Source of the DNA: an uncultured Acidobacteriota bacterium
Lineage (GTDB): Bacteria > Acidobacteriota > UBA6911 > RPQK01 > JAPXNP01
Assembly (NCBI GenBank): GCA_963777605.1
Contig: CAVZRV010000007.1
Location: forward strand, 480,001-544,000
DNA: 64,000 nt
Direction: 5' to 3'
Position numbers and translations under genes: made by a program. The notes under the pieces are model-generated. The model saw only the letters and a program-made list of their open reading frames with translations, was not told where the DNA came from and did not search any database. Below, piece by piece: positions 52,711 to 60,206 of this stretch. How positions within the stretch are numbered: position 1 is the stretch's first letter; every line of letters starts with the position of its first letter.

Positions 52711-53770
52711 TTGGCGATGAGGGCCGCGCAGGAGGCCGGGGGAGACCTCGGTGGTGAGTTTACGGGCAGGCACTTTTCTGCCGAGTCTGGCGGTGAAGCG
52801 AAGTCCAACTACCGGCCGAGACTGCTCACCCGCATGCGGGAGGCTCTGCGCTCGCGCCACTACAGCCGCCGCACCGAGCAAACCTACTGCAGCTGGGTCA
52901 AGCGGTTCATCTTCTTCCACAACGTGCGCCACCCGGCAGAAATGGGCGAGCCGGAAATCAACGCTTTCCTGACGTATCTTGCCGTGAAAGGGAAGGTCAG
53001 TGCCTCCACCCAGAACCAGGCGCTTTCGGCGCTGCTGTTTCTCTACCGTCATGTAGATCGGTCGCGAAGTCGGCGATCTGGGCGAACTCATTCGTGCCCG
53101 CAAGCCCAAACGCCTGCCGGTCGTCCTGACACGCGAAGAAGTTAAAGCCGTGCTGGCGAGCCTTTCGGGCGACAAATGGCTGATGGCCTCGTTAATGTAC
53201 GGAGCAGGATTACGCCTGATGGAATGTCTACGCCTGCGGGTTCAGGACCTTGACTTCTCCCGCAATGAGATTCTCGTCCGTGACGGAAAGGGAGCCAAAG
53301 ACCGCATCACGATGCTGCCCGAATCATTAAAGCAGCCGCTGAAAGAACACCTGAAGCAGGTCAAGGCGGTTCACGAGCAAGATCTGGCCGCCGGATGGGG
53401 ACGAGTGCAACTGCCGTTGGCTCTCGACCGCAAGTATCCCAACGCCCCGAAGGAATGGTGTTGGCAATGGCTCTTTCCCCAAGAGCACCGTTGGAAGAAC
53501 CCCAGGACCGGCGAAGAAGGGCGGCATCATGTGGACGAATCACTTGTTCAGAGGGCGGTTCGCAGGGCAGTCACAGAGGCAGGACTGGCGAAGCGGGCCA
53601 GTTGCCACACCTTCAGGCATTCCTTTGCCACCCATTTGCTTGAGAGTGGTTACGATATTCGGACAGTCCAAGAGCTTTTGGGCCACGCCGATGTCAAGAC
53701 CACGATGATCTATACGCACGTCCTCAACCGAGGGCCGTCAGGTGTGTGCAGCCCGTTGGACGGGCTCTGA
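52711..53770 (+). CDS. intI: Integron integrase, split by one apparent +1 insertion at about 53055
   Basis: [25 protein letters not shown] and (restored) [13 protein letters not shown]. Catalytic [24 protein letters not shown] and TTMIYTHV are present, plus the integron-specific insert [10 protein letters not shown]...WQWLFP...RHH. Confidence 0.93.
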
Positions 53771-54388: not shown

Positions 54389-56065
54389 ATGCAGTCAATC
54401 ACCAGTTGTGGCGCGGCGTGGCCAGCGCGCCGGTGTACCTCCCTGAGCCTGATCCTATTCGTGGCGATGGTCGTAGCCATCGGCGCACCGGCGAGTACCG
54501 CCGAACCGGCGCCCTCGCCCGCTTCCCTGCAGGCAGGCATTGACCCGCGGGTCGAGCTGTTCGCGATCATCTACCGGCTCGCGGGATACCTGGACCATGG
54601 CGAGGAGCACGCGACCTCATACTACGAGACGGAGGTGCAAAATCACTTCGGGCGCTACCGGGAGCATCCGGTCGTCGCGCTCGCAACCCGTCTCAAGGAG
54701 GATCGAAACGTAGACTACGGGGTCCAGTTGAGCCTCGCGGTGCACGTGGATGACGCCGCCAACCTGCAGCTGCGAGTGCCGCTCGATCCCTGGCCCGAGA
54801 CGCTGCACGAGCGCTGGACTCCGGAGCTCATTGACGAGTTCCTCGCCCAGGCCCGCGACTTCGCCACGCAAAGCGACTTCGGCGGGTTTGTCGAGAAGCA
54901 GGGGCCCTTCTATGCCGAGACGGTCGCCCGCGCCGAGCGTGCGCTCGAGGCCGGGGTCCACGTCGACTGGTTCGACAGCTTCTTTGGCCCCCAGACCGGT
55001 CGGGAGTTCCGCGTGTTCATCTCGCCTCTTGGCGGGCCGCACGGGTGGTATTCCTTCTGGCTCTCAACGGAGCAGGGGCTCGAGGCGATGAGCGTGATCG
55101 GCTGCGGGAGGTTGGACGACCAAGGCAAGCCGGTGTTCCACCAGGGGGCGCGCGGACTGAGCTGGGCCTCTGGGATCGTCCATGAGCTCTCACACTCCTA
55201 CGTGAACCCGATCTCAGATCCGTACCTCGATCAGCTCGAGGAGCCCGTCAATCGGATGAAGCCCTTCCTAGTGGCGTACTTCGCCAAAGCCTACGGGCAG
55301 GAACACCACTCCGCCCTCGTGAGGGAGTCGCTGGTGAGGGCAGCCGTCATCCGCTACCTCCATGAGCGCCGGGGATTCTTGGCGGGGCGTCGCGTCCTCG
55401 CCGGGGAGTTGAAGCAGGGCGCCTTCTGGATGCCGGAACTGCTGGAGACGCTGGAGCAGTACGAAAGCCAGCGCGACCGTTACCCCGATTTTCAGTCCTA
55501 CATGCCGGAGGTGGTCGAGTTCTTCGAGGTCTACAGCTCGCGGATCAGGGCAAAGGCGGCCGTGGCCAGGGCGTCACTTCCTCTTTATGTTTTGCTGCTC
55601 GTCGTCTACCTCATCGCAGTCTGGCTCCCGTCGCGCCGGTGGCCGACGCCGATGCCCGGGACGAGATGGGATCGGGTTGTCACATTCGGTCTGCTCTACG
55701 CCGTCCTGGGTCCCGCGTTTGAGTTCTTCGCGCTCGGCAACAGACCGGGGCTCCCCTGGCTGATAGCAGGAGCAATGCTCCTCCTGGCGGCCACGCTCAT
55801 AGGGCGTAGCGCCAGGTCAGAAGCAGGAGGGACCGCGCCCTCGGGCCCGCCGGACGAGGCTGTGCGTTCTTGGCCGGCGCGACCTCGGCATGTGCCCGCC
55901 TCTCTAGAGTTGAGCTATCTGCTCGTCCTCGTCGGCGCGCCGGTGATGCTGTCGGCTCGGCTTTCGTGGGTCTTCAGCGTCATCGCGGTAGTGGCGGTGC
56001 TGCTCCAGGCCAGGGCCAACAAAGCGCCTGCCATGGACTCTGATGTGGTTGTCGCGGGCCGATGA
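54389..56065 (+). CDS. DUF4932-like exported gluzincin with C-terminal TM helices
   Basis: Signal peptide; IDPRVELFAIIYRLAG, VHELSHSYVNP and ESLVRA motifs; about four C-terminal hydrophobic segments. Confidence 0.8.
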   Translation: MQSITSCGAAWPARRCTSLSLILFVAMVVAIGAPASTAEPAPSPASLQAGIDPRVELFAIIYRLAGYLDHGEEHATSYYETEVQNHFGRYREHPVVALATRLKEDRNVDYGVQLSLAVHVDDAANLQLRVPLDPWPETLHERWTPELIDEFLAQARDFATQSDFGGFVEKQGPFYAETVARAERALEAGVHVDWFDSFFGPQTGREFRVFISPLGGPHGWYSFWLSTEQGLEAMSVIGCGRLDDQGKPVFHQGARGLSWASGIVHELSHSYVNPISDPYLDQLEEPVNRMKPFLVAYFAKAYGQEHHSALVRESLVRAAVIRYLHERRGFLAGRRVLAGELKQGAFWMPELLETLEQYESQRDRYPDFQSYMPEVVEFFEVYSSRIRAKAAVARASLPLYVLLLVVYLIAVWLPSRRWPTPMPGTRWDRVVTFGLLYAVLGPAFEFFALGNRPGLPWLIAGAMLLLAATLIGRSARSEAGGTAPSGPPDEAVRSWPARPRHVPASLELSYLLVLVGAPVMLSARLSWVFSVIAVVAVLLQARANKAPAMDSDVVVAGR

Positions 56066-56198
56066 GACCGTTCTTAGAGCACTGTACAGAGCACATGAGG
56101 GTTGGGGTCGTGCAGGTAGGAGCCTCCCGAAGGTCGCGAGCCCCCTCGTGCAGCTCCGATTAGAATCGCCAGAGAGGTCAGGTTTTGTATTTTGCATG

Positions 56199-56589
56199 TC
56201 ACGACATAATTAAAGTATGAAATGTGTACTCCGGGAACTGGCTTCGGGCGATCTTGAACTTGAGCAGGCCGTCCTCCCAGATGTGGCCGCCCTTGACCTC
56301 GATGAACTCCTGCCTGCCGTCCGGGTAGAGCACCTTGAAGTCGGGCGTGTACCAGGTCCGGTCCGCGGCGCTCGGTCAGCCGAAACTTCTGGGCCTCGAA
56401 ACGCCAGCTGACGATCTCGCCGGCTTTGCGTTGCGCCTCGAGCCGGTCGGCGAAGGCCCGCTCCGTCTTGTTCATGCGTCCAGGTGACAGGCAAGCCATC
56501 GCCGTTCTGCTCGTCGGCAGCACTTCGGTGGGTGATAGTCGCCTTTCCTGCCAGGCCTTGAATTCGTCCATATTCCGGAATCTCAGCAT
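56199..56589 (-). pseudogene. Phage DUF1064-like PD-(D/E)xK nuclease, +1 frameshift at about 56370
   Basis: MNKTE.AFA..LE....GEI..WRFE..KFRL, then after restoring the frame TWYTPDFKVLYPDG..EFIEVKG..WED...KFK.A...FP. Confidence 0.78.
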
Positions 56590-56596
56590 TTTCTCT

Positions 56597-57180
56597 TCAC
56601 AACTCGATGACTTCGCACATGTCCTTGATCCGGCGCAGTGCCGCCGGCGGGAGGCATTCCATTTCCTGGAGCTCGGGCAAGCCGAAGTTTGACGTCAGCG
56701 ACAATCCGAGATCTCTCCGGTACAGGAGATCCACCAATTCGCAAACCATCTCTCGCCGGAAATCGGTCAGCCGGATCTTGTCGACATCGTCCCAACAGAG
56801 ATGCAGCGACGAGGATGTGGCTGCCTTGTAGAGGATGACGGAAGGCGACCCGAACTCCTCATCGTGCAGCTCGTCCATCAGGGCGTGACTGGACCGTAGC
56901 TCGGGGTCTCTGCAGCCGATCAGTTCCCGGAACTGGGCGATCAAGAGGTGCGTCTTGCCCGATCCGTAGCGCCCGTGAAGGAAAAAGCTGCCGGCTGGAT
57001 TGGCCCGGATCCTCGCCTGGAGCTGCCGCCTGAGTTCGTTCACCTGCCGGCAGGTCATCCAGACCCGGGACGGCCGCTTCGGCTCCAGTTCTCGGCGCTC
57101 GGTCCAGCTGCGTTTCCTTCTCAGGATCAAGCGGCCTTCGACTATGAAGGCGTCGAACTCGGTGCAGGTGATCGTCTCAC
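56597..57180 (-). pseudogene. DnaC/IstB-like phage replication ATPase, 5'-truncated
   Basis: FLHGRYGSGKTHL Walker A, CWDDVDK Walker B, LTSN and RRIKDMC. The frame is open only up to an in-frame TAA at about 57182. Confidence 0.75.
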
Positions 57181-57202
57181 CTTAGGGAATCGTGGAAAAT
57201 GC

Positions 57203-57230
57203 TTGACAATCAAGCGCGGCTCGATAGAAT
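57203..57230 (+). promoter_or_regulatory. Near-consensus sigma70 promoter
   Basis: TTGACA-16 nt-TAGAAT. Confidence 0.7.
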
Positions 57231-57236
57231 AGAAGT

Positions 57237-57330
57237 TGGCCCCAAGTCGTTCAAGGAATACTGGTAACGAGGCTGATCGAAAGGTTAGTTTAGGTTTAAT
57301 GTCAGCCTTTCTAAAGGTCACTTGGGGCCA
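57237..57330 (+). ncRNA. Unrecognised structured RNA (multi-branch, about 94 nt)
   Basis: Perfect 11-bp terminal stem TGGCCCCAAGT/ACTTGGGGCCA starting at the predicted TSS. Internal hairpins include AGGCTGATC-GAAA-GGTTAGTTT. Confidence 0.55.
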
Positions 57331-57746
57331 TTTCCATTCCTGAGCCAACCGTTTCGAATCCTTCCCGCAACGAGTCCCAGATCGGTATTGGCGATCCCGG
57401 TCGTCCTCCGGTGTGCGGGACAAGACCACGAGCTCCCAGGTTCAGCCGATATTCTGTTCGTCGATTCTAAGAGTCGTTCGTAGAGACTATGAACATCTCT
57501 CAAACGGGCGTCACCGTCAGAAACTCCAAAACGTCTATTATCGTCGGCGCCCCTGGAACGCGCCACCGCCAGATCACCTGCCGGGAGACGGGCAAGCCCG
57601 GGTTCCTCTACACCTCCTTCGCAATCCCATCGGCAGCGCTTTACAGCGGGTGTATTCTCGAGTCAATCGTTTCCATAGGCAATGCAGATTGAAGAGGGCT
57701 TCAGAATCGGGGTTTTCGAGTCCAGCCGAATATCGGAGTGTTGACA

Positions 57747-59754
57747 ATGCCAGATACAAATGTAGAAACGGATCTTCGTCTCCCCAACACCGAATTGAAT
57801 ACGCGAATTGCCCTGTTGGAAAAGAAGTTGCTGGAGCAGGAGATGGCCGAGAAGTCGCTGGTGGATTCCGAGAAGCGTTACCGACGGCTCTTTGAATCAG
57901 CCAAGGACGGTATCTTGATTCTAGATGCCGAGACGGGCAAGGTGGATGATGTCAATCCCTTCCTGTTGCGGTTACTTGGCTATTCTTACGAGGAGTTACA
58001 CGGAAAACACATCTGGGAACTCGGTGCATTCAAGGACATTGCCGCGTCCAAGGACGCTTTCAAAACTCTGCAAGGTAATGAATACATCCGTTACGAAGAT
58101 TTGCCGCTGCAAACCCGCGATGGGCGGTCCATCGCCGTGGAGTTTGTCAGCAATGTTTATCTGGTGGACCATAAAAAGGTGATCCAGTGCAACATCCGTG
58201 ATATCACCGCGCGCAAGCAGGCGGAGAAGGCTTTGGCGGATGAGCGAAGCCAAGACGCGCAGCATCCTGGACAACATCGGAATCGGCGTTGCCCTCATCA
58301 GTCCCGAAGATGGAGATTCTCGAACTGAACCACCGGATGCGCGAGTGGTTTCCTGCCATCGATCCGGGTCAACGCCCGTATCTGTTACCGCGCGTTCAAC
58401 GACCCGCCGCGCGAGGCGGCGTGCGACGACTGCCCGACCGCAAAAGACACTGCGGGACGGCCTGGTTCACGAAGCCACGACGCAAACGCCGCAGGCAGGC
58501 GGCGTGCGCAACTACCGCATCGTTTCGTCCCCGATCCTCGACGCGTCGGGCGAGGTTACGGCGGCGATCGAGATGGTCGAGGACATCACCGAAAAGCTCT
58601 CCCTGGAGTCCCAGTTCCAACAGGCCCAGAAAATGGAAGCGGTGGGCCTGCTGGCGGGCGGCGTGGCCCACGATTACAACAATATGCTCAGCGTGATCAT
58701 CGGTTATACGGAACTGGCTATGAGCAAGGTGGACCCGGCGCAGCCGCTGCGTTCTGACCTTGAGCAGATTCTCAAGGCCGCAATGCGTTCCGCGGACATA
58801 ACCCGGCAACTGCTGGCCTTCGCCCGCAAGCAGACAGTTGTTCCCGAGGCACTCGACCTGAACCGGTGCGTGGAGAGCATGCTCACGTTGCTCCGGCGAC
58901 TAATCGGCGAAGACATCGGTCTGGGCTGGGTCCCCGAGGTAGGCCTCTCTCCGATCAAGATGGACCCCGTCCAAGTCGATCAGATCCTGGCCAATCTTTG
59001 TGTAAACGCCAGGGACGCCATTGCCGACGTCGGCAATATCACTATCGAAACGGGAAACGCCGTCTTTGACGAGACCTACTGCGCTGGTCACGCCGGGTTT
59101 GTGGCAGGTGAGTATGTGCTGCTGTCCGTCAGCGACGACGGTTGCGGCATGGACAAGGAGATGGCCGGCCAAATTTTCGAACCCTTTTTCACCAGCAAGA
59201 AGGTCGGCCGAGGAACCGGCCTGGGGCTGTCCACGGTGTATGGCATCGTCAAGCAGAACAACGGATTCATAAACGTCTATAGCGAACCGGGAAAGGGGAC
59301 GACTTTTAGAATCTACCTGCCCCGGTATGGGGGCCCTGTAGTAGATACCCAGCCGGAAAGTGCCGTGGATATCCCTCAAAGCCGTGGCGAGATGGTGTTG
59401 GTGGTGGAAGACGAGCCCTCGCTCATGAGGATGAGTAAGACGATGCTGGAAAAATTGGGATATCGGGTGCTTACCGCAGGCACACCGGGCGAGGCCATTG
59501 GGCTGGCCGAAGAGCACCCGAGCGAGATACAGCTTCTGATCACCGATGTAGTCATGCCGGAAATGAACGGCCGGGAGCTGGCGGAACGGATGCAATCCCG
59601 TTACCCCGGCATGAAAATTCTGTTCATGTCCGGCTATACAGCCGACGTGATCGTCCACCGCGGTGTGCTGGACGAGGGCGTGAACTTCATCAAGAAGCCA
59701 TTCTCGATGAAGGATCTGGCCATCAAAGTGCGGAGTGCGGTGAGAGAAGAGTGA
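57747..59754 (+). CDS. PAS-PAS hybrid sensor histidine kinase/receiver, broken by four apparent +1 insertions (58.2-58.45 kb)
   Basis: PAS (YRRLFESAKDGIL), H-box AGGVAHDYNN, N-box NLCVNARDA, G-boxes DDGCGM and GTGLGL, and receiver LLITDVVMP. Confidence 0.9.
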
Positions 59755-59809
59755 GTGTAACGGCGTGTCCCCGGTTCCCGGGAGTGACGGACCAGGCGGG
59801 CAGACTGAG

Positions 59810-59898
59810 CGATGAACTCTTGCCGCCCGTCCGGATAGAGCACCGTGAAGTCGGGTGTGTACCAGGTTCGATCCGCGGCGTACGTCAGCCGGAACTTT
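59810..59898 (-). pseudogene. Second internal fragment of the DUF1064-like nuclease
   Basis: Translates KFRLTYAADRTWYTPDFTVLYPDGRQEFI; paralogous to 56300-56389. Confidence 0.8.
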
Positions 59899-59931
59899 GG
59901 CGTTCCGGGGAACGGCTACGAGGTTACTTCA

Positions 59932-60206
59932 GGCCTTCTGTCAACTCCAGCCTTGACGGCAACACGAGGCGTGCCATCGACTCCCATGAGGGGAGGCGAA
60001 AACGAGGATTGGCGCTGAAACTCACGTCTTCGCGGCCGTGTCCAGGAAAGTCGAGAGGCAAAAGGTCAATCTGCAAGGCGTGCTTCCTCGGCCTCTTCAA
60101 CTCCAGCCTTGACGGCAACACGGGGCGTGCCATCGACTTCCACGAGGGCGAGGCGATAGACGAGGAGGCGTTGAAACTTCTCATTTGCGCGGCCCTGGCC
60201 CTGAAC
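59932..60206 (+). pseudogene. Two tandem C-terminal fragments of a DUF1801 (YdhG-like) gene
   Basis: NSSLDGNTRRAIDSHEG and GLFNSSLDGNTGRAIDFHEGEAIDEEALK.LI.AA.ALN. Direct repeat 59941-59992 / 60097-60148 with 3 mismatches. Confidence 0.72.

What the first reader, a model, noticed from the sequence alone, without database searches (positions are those of the whole stretch)
57203..57500. Strong promoter driving an unrecognised, potentially switchable structured RNA
Seen: TTGACA-16-TAGAAT, and 6 nt later a perfect 11-bp stem (57237-47/57320-30). It encloses CGTT...AACG with a GAATA loop, a 9-bp GAAA-tetraloop hairpin whose four G-U pairs define the plus strand, and AGGTT-TAATGTC-AGCCT. AGGCTGA can alternatively pair with TCAGCCT, giving mutually exclusive folds. 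More hairpins follow to about 57500, and the next credible gene (PAS kinase) is about 400 nt away. I cannot match it to a riboswitch, tRNA or ribozyme I know. It starts right at the point where the phage ATPase is truncated. Inference: a novel sRNA, riboswitch-like leader or mobile-element RNA.
Basis: partly seen in the sequence, partly recalled or inferred. Interest (0 to 1): 0.7.

Follow-up and report, generated by a model that had tools for sequence, protein, structure and literature searches.

The report
New structured small RNA of Acidobacteriota
This is a real gene for a small folded RNA of about 95 bases with its own strong promoter, one member of a family seen here almost only in one order of Acidobacteriota that matches no catalogued RNA family; what it does is still unknown.

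Summary
The promoter (TTGACA-16-TAGAAT, 57203-57230), the 11-bp closing stem (57237-47/57320-30) and the GAAA hairpin are all there. The unit 57237-57330 (+) is one member of a conserved RNA family. A covariance model finds it in 27 of 76 genomes of the window's order (Acidobacteriota), with 1 to 7 copies per genome. It also finds full copies in 17 of 17 metagenome contigs picked out by an 18-mer-based pattern. Outside the order, a sample of the phylum gave one weak variant.

On 42 distinct sequences, 26 of 32 pairs show compensatory changes (0 of 500 shuffles reach this). The fold is a rod: a 14-bp basal stem, a CA/AAA internal loop, two short helices, and an apical GAAA hairpin flanked by near-invariant ACGA and AGGUU.

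Promoter-like sites sit at a fixed distance in 45 of 53 copies, and 46 of 53 end in a T-run. No neighbouring gene is conserved, and 11 of 21 downstream genes are convergent. There was no Rfam match, no exact match in 2.9 million viral contigs, and no Ro60 gene in the order.

Verdict: a new free-standing structured sRNA family that probably acts in trans through its fold, most likely by binding a protein. The riboswitch-leader and mobile-element readings are not supported.

The parts
57203..57230 (+). sigma-70-type promoter: -35 TTGACA (57203-08), 16-nt spacer, -10 TAGAAT (57225-30)
   Evidence: 11 of 12 matches. A comparable site whose -10 ends 3-10 nt (mostly 6-8) before the basal stem is present in 45 of 53 distinct copies.
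57237..57330 (+). sRNA gene body (about 94 nt; the start of transcription is inferred at about 57236-57237, not measured)
   Evidence: Conserved as a unit in relatives (the match covers only 57225-57340). Covariance-model score 113.9 bits with R1 and 100.3 bits with R2. Single copy in its own genome.
57238..57251 (+). P1 basal stem, 5' strand. It pairs with 57316-57329. In the window 57237/57330 adds a U-A pair and 57248/57319 is a C-C mismatch.
   Evidence: 14 pairs, 94% of cells paired, 9 pairs with changes on both sides. The sequence is otherwise near-invariant.
57316..57329 (+). P1 basal stem, 3' strand, inside the most conserved stretch UCUAAAGGUCACUUGGGGC
57252..57253 (+). internal loop, 5' side (CA), opposite AAA at 57313-57315
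   Evidence: Largely conserved unpaired bases in 42 distinct sequences; the AAA side is at least 90% conserved.
57254..57258 (+). P2a, 5' strand; pairs with 57308-57312
   Evidence: 5 pairs, 4 with changes on both sides; 76% of cells paired.
57261..57266 (+). P2b, 5' strand; pairs with 57300-57305
   Evidence: 6 pairs, all 6 with changes on both sides; 79% of cells paired.
57267..57271 (+). junction before P3, holding the conserved ACGA
   Evidence: consensus line.
57272..57289 (+). P3 hairpin: 7-bp stem with a GAAA tetraloop (57279-57282)
   Evidence: 7 pairs, all 7 with changes on both sides, 91.5% of cells paired. The loop is GAAA in most of the 42 distinct sequences.
57290..57299 (+). junction after P3, holding the conserved AGGUU
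   Evidence: consensus line.
57331..57340 (+). weak U-tract (TTTCCATTCC). Most homologues have 4-8 T here.
   Evidence: a T-run of 4 or more in 46 of 53 distinct copies; the window copy has a run of only 3.

Best explanation
Window 57237-57330 (+) is a free-standing gene for a structured small RNA of about 95-100 nt.

Shown:
- A near-consensus sigma-70 promoter sits 6 nt upstream.
- The RNA folds into a rod closed by a 14-bp basal stem whose 5' and 3' strands are the two ends of the transcript.
- In most family members the stem is followed at once by a U-tract, so it also looks like an intrinsic terminator.
- The family is conserved with compensatory base changes across one order of Acidobacteriota, at 1-7 copies per genome, in unrelated gene neighbourhoods.

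Inferred:
- The RNA acts in trans.
- Several features point away from an exposed base-pairing seed. The length is near-constant (102-109 nt aligned). The unpaired bases are near-invariant (the AAA side of the CA/AAA loop, ACGA, the GAAA loop, AGGUU). The basal stem is conserved in sequence even though it is helical. The RNA therefore probably works through a compact three-dimensional fold.
- The most likely mode is as the binding site or scaffold for a protein, either sequestering it or forming an RNP. The GAAA loop possibly folds back onto the internal loop.
- The partner is unknown. HU is the only candidate with any genomic link.
For: Family and distribution:
- DNA search: 5 of 15 other genomes of the family match, and only over 57225-57340.
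- Model R1: 27 of 76 genomes of the order, 19 of 32 genera, 54 places plus 2 reverse-strand echoes, up to 7 per genome.
- All 17 metagenome stretches found by pattern are full-length matches, 61.5-108.9 bits.
- All 16 genome contigs stretches are titled Acidobacteriota.
- Phylum sample: 4 of 151 genomes, and only one weak variant outside the order.

Structure:
- RNAalifold on six sequences found the rod independently.
- On 42 distinct sequences 87.9% of cells are paired against 78.7% in shuffles, 26 of 32 pairs have changes on both sides, 0 of 500 shuffles reach any measure, and slid controls give at most 14 such pairs.

Strand:
- There are many G-U pairs, which would be A-C on the other strand.
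- Promoter and T-run orientation agree.
- Reverse-strand model scores are 20-35 bits against 61-109 forward.

Transcription signals: promoter-like site in 45 of 53 distinct copies and a T-run of 4 or more in 46 of 53. An A-tract lies just upstream of the -35 in 9 of 30 copies.

Acts in trans:
- No ORF cluster is shared by more than 4 of 21 loci within 7 kb on either side.
- Of 84 flanking ORFs, no Pfam family is shared by more than 2.
- The next downstream ORF is convergent in 11 of 21 loci.

Fold rather than seed: the conservation pattern. Variants in G019 and G133 keep the basal stem but swap the apical part.
Against: - No expression data exist for any copy, so the transcript ends are inferred from consensus motifs only.
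- No protein partner is identified. RRM-domain genes are in 76 of 76 genomes, so their profile says nothing.
- The HU link rests on 4 genomes.
- A conserved terminator-plus-U-tail also fits a chaperone-dependent base-pairing sRNA.
- The window's own copy has a poor U-tract, so here the transcript may run on downstream.
- The tetraloop-receptor idea has no covariation support: the few loop variants (AAAA, GAAG, GACA) keep the same internal loop.
- Alignments A3 and A5 were fitted to the model, which leans pair counts towards it.
- Presence and absence rest largely on MAGs and on strict search filters.
Confidence: 0.5

Rival explanations
1. A base-pairing regulatory sRNA. An unpaired conserved stretch (AGGUU, ACGA or UCUAAAGG) pairs with target mRNAs, helped by a chaperone that holds the terminator stem and U-tail.
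For: Its own promoter, a terminator-like stem with a U-tail in 46 of 53 copies, variable gene context and several paralogues per genome are all typical of trans-acting regulatory sRNAs.
Against: The 5' end is buried in P1. The conserved unpaired stretches are only 2-5 nt and sit in internal loops. Sequence is most conserved inside a helix. Length is nearly fixed. No target search across genomes could be run.
Confidence: 0.2
2. A cis-acting leader or riboswitch-like attenuator. The fold senses a ligand or a protein, and P1 plus the U-tract decides whether transcription reads into the downstream gene.
For: P1 doubles as a terminator-like stem. In G029 copy 2, the HU start codon lies about 45 nt after the U-tract with no room for its own promoter. 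HU also follows the RNA on the same strand in G034, in the other G029 copy and in the record behind L048. The window and its close relatives have a strong alternative pairing. The window copy has a weak U-tract, and a kinase gene lies about 400 nt downstream on the same strand.
Against: The next ORF is convergent in 11 of 21 loci. Same-strand downstream genes are unrelated: HU, a TPR protein, Lgt, proteins with no family. The alternative pairing averages only -4.8 against -3.1 kcal/mol for shuffled partners over 42 homologues. The region 57340-57737 is not conserved in relatives.
Confidence: 0.12
3. A mobile-element or phage RNA, or a miniature inverted-repeat element (MITE) whose terminal inverted repeats are the two strands of P1.
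For: The distribution is patchy and multi-copy. The element has 14-bp inverted ends. In the window it lies beside a DnaC-like ATPase and 4 kb from a tyrosine recombinase. Transposase genes are among the neighbours of a few copies.
Against: The most conserved 18-mer has 0 exact matches in 2.9 million viral contigs. No recurring neighbour gene was found. The four copies in one genome (G071) differ in P3 by compensatory changes rather than being near-identical. The G-U asymmetry and the fixed promoter and terminator framing point to selection on an RNA. The promoter hexamers are conserved but their spacers are not.
Confidence: 0.04
4. A diverged member of a known housekeeping or catalogued RNA: Y RNA, SRP RNA, 6S RNA, Acido-1 or Acido-Lenti-1.
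For: It is rod-shaped with the 5' and 3' ends paired, a U-tail and a strong promoter. From memory, the basal stem looked a little like the Ro-binding stem of Y RNAs.
Against: There is no Rfam match at E up to 10, even on the 118 nt alone, and none at the RNA in 19 homologous loci. The TROVE/Ro60 domain is in 0 of 76 genomes of the order, while the control genomes rang. SRP RNA and 6S RNA are found elsewhere in the same genome above their thresholds.
Confidence: 0.02

Closest known systems
Y RNAs (bacterial YrlA/Yrn1 type and animal Y RNAs)
   Same: About 100 nt. The 5' and 3' ends pair into a conserved basal stem followed by a U-tail. The apical part is variable (compare the G019 and G133 variants). 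Y RNAs work as protein-binding scaffolds.
   Different: No Ro60/TROVE gene in any of the 76 genomes of the order. No match to any Rfam family, which I take to include the Y RNA models. No conserved adjacent gene. The sequence likeness was only recalled, not tested.
Bacterial small SRP RNA (4.5S) and 6S RNA
   Same: Abundant, rod-like, protein-binding RNAs with internal loops. SRP RNA also has an apical GNRA-type loop.
   Different: Both are present elsewhere in this genome above their Rfam thresholds. The new RNA is patchy (27 of 76 genomes) and multi-copy, so it is not a universal housekeeping RNA.
Acido-1 (RF01686) and Acido-Lenti-1 (RF01687) motifs of Weinberg et al. 2010 (PMC2864571; passages read with 'find')
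   Same: Candidate free-standing non-coding RNAs reported from Acidobacteria, function unknown.
   Different: Both are in Rfam, and neither matches the window RNA or the 19 homologous loci searched. I could not see their consensus diagrams, because supplements are closed.
Orphan structured sRNA motifs found by comparative genomics (for example the non-coding RNA candidates of the Breaker-laboratory surveys: PMC2864571; search listings only for PMC8632094 and PMC11109978)
   Same: Defined by covariation plus promoter and terminator framing, with no conserved gene association and unknown function.
   Different: The full-text search counted no word beginning 'Acidobacteri' in the two GC-IGR survey papers. 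This family appears in none of the searches run.
Miniature inverted-repeat elements that fold as RNA hairpins (Correia, ERIC or RUP type; recalled)
   Same: About 100 bp, inverted ends, several copies per genome.
   Different: Low copy number, compensatory changes between copies in one genome, strand-asymmetric G-U pairs, its own promoter and terminator.

Membership tests
Any Rfam 15 family | Covariance-model match at or near the family's gathering score | tested here: not met
   Window at gathering threshold: only two tRNAs, both elsewhere. 57000-57800 at E up to 10: one chance lncRNA hit outside the element. The 118 nt alone: one 5.4-bit hit. 19 homologous loci at E up to 1: nothing at the RNA.
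Y RNA | A Ro60/Rsr (TROVE domain) protein encoded in the genome, usually next to the RNA | tested here: not met
   PF05731 in 0 of 76 genomes of the order, own genome included. The control rang in Deinococcus radiodurans and Bacteroides thetaiotaomicron.
Bacterial SRP RNA / 6S RNA | The single housekeeping copy of that RNA in the genome | tested here: not met
   RF00169 at G000:C13 (72.3 bits) and RF00013 at G000:C11 (63.5 bits), both on other contigs.
Riboswitch / cis-regulatory leader | Lies upstream of, and on the same strand as, a functionally coherent set of genes | tested here: not met
   Next ORF convergent in 11 of 21 loci. Of 84 flanking ORFs, no Pfam family is shared by more than 2. 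HU follows the RNA in only 4 genomes.
Riboswitch / cis-regulatory leader | Conserved mutually exclusive folds (expression platform) | tested here: inconclusive
   The alternative pairing is strong in the window, g9 and some g25 copies, and weak on average (-4.8 against -3.1 kcal/mol shuffled). Ligand binding is not testable here.
Free-standing bacterial sRNA gene | Own promoter and own intrinsic terminator, conserved independently of the neighbouring genes | tested here: met
   Promoter-like site in 45 of 53 and a T-run of 4 or more in 46 of 53 distinct copies. Variable neighbours. These are motif-level signals only; no transcript data.
Structured RNA (selection on base pairs) | Compensatory changes beyond the shuffled and slid controls | tested here: met
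   26 of 32 pairs and 150 cells with changes on both sides. 0 of 500 shuffles reach this, and slid registers give 7-14 pairs. An independent RNAalifold fold agrees.
Chaperone-dependent base-pairing sRNA | An accessible, conserved single-stranded seed of about 6 nt or more, plus conserved targets | tested here: inconclusive
   Terminator and U-tail are present. The conserved unpaired runs are 2-5 nt and lie in internal loops. Targets and chaperone were not tested.
MITE / mobile element or phage-borne RNA | Near-identical copies, target-site duplications, association with mobility or phage genes, presence in viral sequence | tested here: not met
   0 exact hits in viral contigs. Paralogues within one genome differ by compensatory changes. 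No recurrent mobility gene. Target-site duplications were not looked for systematically.
Retron msr-msd RNA | Reverse-transcriptase gene directly downstream | tested here: not met
   No ORF family recurs beside the RNA: at most 4 of 21 loci (CBS), and HU in 3. No reverse transcriptase appears among the 25 most frequent of the 49 Pfam families found in 84 flanking ORFs; the other 24 families were not shown.

The most novel reading that the evidence does not exclude
The RNA is the scaffold of a so-far unknown ribonucleoprotein of Acidobacteriota. The near-invariant basal stem with its CA/AAA loop is the dock for a dedicated protein. The apical module (GAAA hairpin plus the ACGA/AGGUU junction, replaced by other modules in the G019 and G133 variants) carries the effector function. 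This would be an analogue of the Y RNA-Ro system without Ro. One version of this reading makes the nucleoid protein HU the partner, since its gene follows the RNA in four genomes.
Probability: 0.2. Interest if true: 0.75.

Novelty: new member of a known kind. Interest (0 to 1): 0.55.

Why it matters
As far as I recall, almost no RNA biology has been described for Acidobacteriota, although they are among the most abundant soil and sediment bacteria. This is a compact, clearly structured and probably abundant sRNA with 1-7 copies per genome. It is absent from Rfam 15, and the literature searches run here found no description of it. It gives a ready-made covariance model for annotating genomes of this order. 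It is also a defined target for pull-down, deletion and structure work in cultured relatives. If it turns out to be the RNA half of a new RNP, or a partner of HU, it would add a new class of protein-binding bacterial RNA.

Tried and rejected
Rfam. Four searches found nothing at the RNA.

Y RNA idea. It came from a recalled likeness of the basal stem and was rejected because TROVE is in 0 of 76 genomes.

SRP RNA and 6S RNA. Rejected, because both are found elsewhere in the genome.

Phage or mobile origin.
- The 18-mer scan of viral contigs gave 0 stretches.
- tblastn of the neighbouring ATPase against 50,697 phage records gave no match.
- PHROGs gave only weak DnaC-like hits.

Conserved neighbours.
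- ORF clustering within 1.5 kb on either side of 30 loci found at most 3 loci per cluster, and the top cluster was three genomes of one genus.
- Clustering within 7 kb on either side of 21 loci found at most 4 loci per cluster, from one genus.
- Pfam on 84 flanking ORFs showed no enrichment.

RRM proteins as a phylogenetic-profile partner. They are present in 76 of 76 genomes, so the profile is uninformative.

Conserved RNA switch. Not supported.

Wider variants of the basal stem. The pattern search hit 15 of 76 genomes of the order and 8 of 401 of the phylum sample. Outside the order it hit only G133 and G367. G367 looks like chance, and the reversed-pattern control hit 5 genomes. Five complete genomes without a hit were searched again with lax filters: only G019 has a variant, and G057, G062 and G024 had no match at E up to 1.

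Expression. No RNA holder was listed for window 55000-60000.

Literature. Four searches found no description of this RNA. A fifth search listed the Y RNA papers, none of which I read beyond the listing. Supplements are closed, so the consensus diagrams of Acido-1 and Acido-Lenti-1 could not be compared by eye.

Full report
**What is in the sequence**

- TTGACA (57203-08), a 16-nt spacer and TAGAAT (57225-30) match the consensus at 11 of 12 positions. The scan found 2 promoter-like sites in 56500-58000 against 0.5 expected.
- Six bases later, TGGCCCCAAGT (57237-47) is the perfect complement of ACTTGGGGCCA (57320-30).
- The 102-nt stretch folds at -35.8 kcal/mol (z = -3.72). The reverse strand folds nearly as well (z = -4.08), so energy alone does not pick the strand.
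- Rfam finds only two tRNAs elsewhere in the window. It finds nothing at the element, even at E up to 10 on 801 nt or on the 118 nt alone.

**It is a conserved unit**

- The element is single-copy in its own genome.
- A DNA search of the taxonomic family matched 5 of 15 other genomes at 76-91% identity. The match covers only 57225-57340, which is exactly the element and not its flanks.
- A covariance model built from these six sequences (R1) found the element in 27 of 76 genomes of the order: 19 of 32 genera, and 17 of 52 high-quality genomes. That is 54 places plus two reverse-strand echoes, with up to 7 copies per genome (G026), 5 in G034 and 4 each in G053 and G071.
- A strict pattern scan of one genome for each of 185,579 species returned 16 stretches, all titled Acidobacteriota.
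- A pattern scan of metagenome contigs returned 17 stretches. All 17 are full-length matches to the second model R2, at 61.5-108.9 bits.
- In an even sample of the phylum, R2 hit 4 of 151 genomes. Three belong to the order, and the fourth (G133) is a 30-bit variant.
- Several clades of the order lack the element. Three of five complete genomes searched again with lax filters had no match at E up to 1.
- The family is therefore real, largely confined to this order as far as sampled, patchy within it, and often multi-copy.
- One positive genome (G070) is unpublished. It supplies two alignment rows, and nothing depends on it.

**Structure**

The helices and loops, with window coordinates, are:

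| Element | Window coordinates |
|---|---|
| P1 basal stem, 14 bp | 57238-51 with 57316-29 |
| Internal loop | CA (57252-53) opposite AAA (57313-15) |
| P2a | 57254-58 with 57308-12 |
| P2b | 57261-66 with 57300-05 |
| Junction with ACGA | 57267-71 |
| P3, 7 bp with GAAA loop | 57272-89 |
| Junction with AGGUU | 57290-99 |

- On 30 homologues, 24 of 32 pairs have changes on both sides.
- On 42 distinct sequences, 26 of 32 pairs do (150 cells). 87.9% of cells are paired against 78.7% in shuffles, 0 of 500 shuffles reach any of the five measures, and slid registers give 7-14 such pairs. These alignments were fitted to the model, which favours it somewhat. The independent alifold result and the slid controls argue that the signal is real.
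- All 7 pairs of P3 and all 6 of P2b covary. P1 covaries at 9 of 14 pairs but is otherwise almost invariant in sequence.
Many pairs are G-U or U-G in a large share of sequences (for example 28 of 42 at one P1 pair and 20 of 42 at one P3 pair). These would be A-C mismatches on the other strand.

**Transcription signals**

- In 45 of 53 distinct copies a promoter-like site scoring 8 or more of 12 ends 3-10 nt (mostly 6-8) before P1. In 46 of 53 copies a run of 4 or more T follows P1.
- The hexamers are conserved while the spacers differ. In 9 of 30 copies an A-tract precedes the -35.
- The inferred RNA thus begins about where P1 begins and ends in a U-tail just after P1.
- The window's own copy is unusual in having only TTT in its tail, so read-through is possible here.
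- There are no expression data. No RNA run was listed for the region.

**Context**

- No gene recurs beside the RNA. Clusters of flanking ORFs reach at most 3 of 30 loci within 1.5 kb on either side and 4 of 21 loci within 7 kb on either side, the latter all from one genus.
- Pfam families of 84 flanking ORFs are diverse, and none is shared by more than 2 (further examples).
- By a crude longest-ORF call, the next downstream ORF is convergent in 11 of 21 loci. This rules out a general role as a leader.
- One association stands out. An HU-type gene follows the RNA on the same strand in both copies of G029, in G034, and after a degenerate copy in the record behind L048. In G029 copy 2 the HU start codon lies about 45 nt after the U-tract.
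- The phage-like neighbours in the window are not part of the family's context. They are a DnaC-like ATPase (weak) and a split tyrosine recombinase about 4 kb away.
- The most conserved 18-mer has no exact match in 2.9 million viral contigs.
- The four copies in G071 differ from one another in P3 by compensatory changes, unlike copies of a transposing repeat.

**Comparison with known RNAs**

- The shape is paired ends, a conserved basal stem, a U-tail and a variable apical part. The G019 and G133 variants keep the stem around a different 60-100-nt insert.
- This shape recalls Y RNAs, but no genome of the order encodes a TROVE/Ro60 protein (0 of 76, controls positive).
- SRP RNA and 6S RNA are present elsewhere in the genome.
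- Acido-1 and Acido-Lenti-1, the two Acidobacteria RNA motifs named in PMC2864571 (passages read), are in Rfam and do not match.
- Four literature searches found no description of this RNA.

**How it most likely works**

Shown: a conserved, structured, independently framed RNA gene family.

Inferred:
- It acts in trans, because its neighbours are unrelated and often convergent.
- It acts through its fold rather than through a long seed. Length is nearly fixed. Conservation is concentrated in short internal-loop bases, the GAAA loop and one helix. The 5' end is buried in P1.
- I therefore favour a protein-binding scaffold or decoy. The basal stem with its CA/AAA loop would be the dock, and the GAAA loop would possibly fold back onto that loop. 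About 0.5 for the whole statement, and above 0.9 for 'real structured sRNA gene'.
- Rivals are a base-pairing sRNA (0.2), a leader or riboswitch-like attenuator (0.12; plausible locally for the HU-linked copies and perhaps for the window copy with its weak terminator), a mobile element (0.04) and a diverged known family (0.02).

The AGGCUGA/UCAGCCU pairing is strong in the window (-10.8 kcal/mol), in g9 and in some g25 copies. In most other members it is a 3-4-bp remnant. The mean is -4.8 against -3.1 kcal/mol for shuffled partners over 42 sequences. A conserved two-state switch is not supported.

**Limits**

- Most genomes are MAGs, and the 76-genome and 151-genome searches used strict filters.
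- Gene calls in the flanks are longest-ORF approximations.
- Transcript ends are inferred from motifs.
- The likenesses to tetraloop receptors and to Y RNAs are recalled, not tested.

Noticed in passing
window 52711-53770 (+): A tyrosine recombinase is split into two ORFs in different frames: an N-terminal SAM-like domain (PF13495, 110 bits) at 52711-53145 and the catalytic domain (PF00589, 126 bits) at 53150-53770. It is either a frameshifted gene or an assembly error. By eye the sequence resembles integron-type integrases; that is recalled, not tested.
   Followed up: partly
window 57738-59754 (+): The hybrid sensor kinase downstream of the sRNA is split over two overlapping ORFs in different frames: PAS domains in 57738-58328, and HisKA, HATPase_c and a receiver domain in 58198-59754.
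   Followed up: partly
window 56300-56389 and 59810-59899: A segment of about 90 nt is present twice at about 85% identity. Both copies lie inside minus-strand ORF pieces, and the second is only a fragment. Together they bracket the ATPase gene, the sRNA gene and the kinase. This could mark a rearrangement or remnants of two related elements.
   Followed up: no
window 59941-59992 and 60097-60148: A 52-nt direct repeat, 94% identical, spaced 156 nt apart.
   Followed up: no
window 56597-57183 (-): The ATPase next to the sRNA gene is a weak DnaC-like helicase-loader match (PHROG 50 and 3277, about 30 bits; Pfam AFG1/AAA_16 below cut-off). It has no tblastn match in 50,697 phage records. The adjacent 170-aa ORF 56077-56586 (-) matches no Pfam or PHROG family.
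   Followed up: partly
L060 7001-7420; L059 7001-7874; L056 6638-7105; L048 5556-5990: An HU-family gene (PF00216) follows the sRNA on the same strand in both copies of G029, in G034 and in the record behind L048, where the sRNA copy has lost its 5' half. In L060 only about 45 nt separate the U-tract from the HU start codon.
   Followed up: partly
L077 1501-1671 (G019) and L054 1501-1625 (G133): Variant RNAs keep the conserved basal stem and U-tract but carry a different apical insert of about 100 nt or 60 nt in place of the P2b/P3 module. G133 lies outside the order.
   Followed up: partly
L034 631-1603 (G037): This copy of the sRNA lies about 300 nt from a tRNA gene and about 500 nt from the RNase P RNA gene. 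It is one of the few copies without a recognisable promoter.
   Followed up: no
L109 2845-2938 (-) and 3033-3134 (+): A metagenome contig carries a full copy and, about 100 nt away on the other strand, a second weaker match of 35 bits. This is a divergent pair.
   Followed up: no
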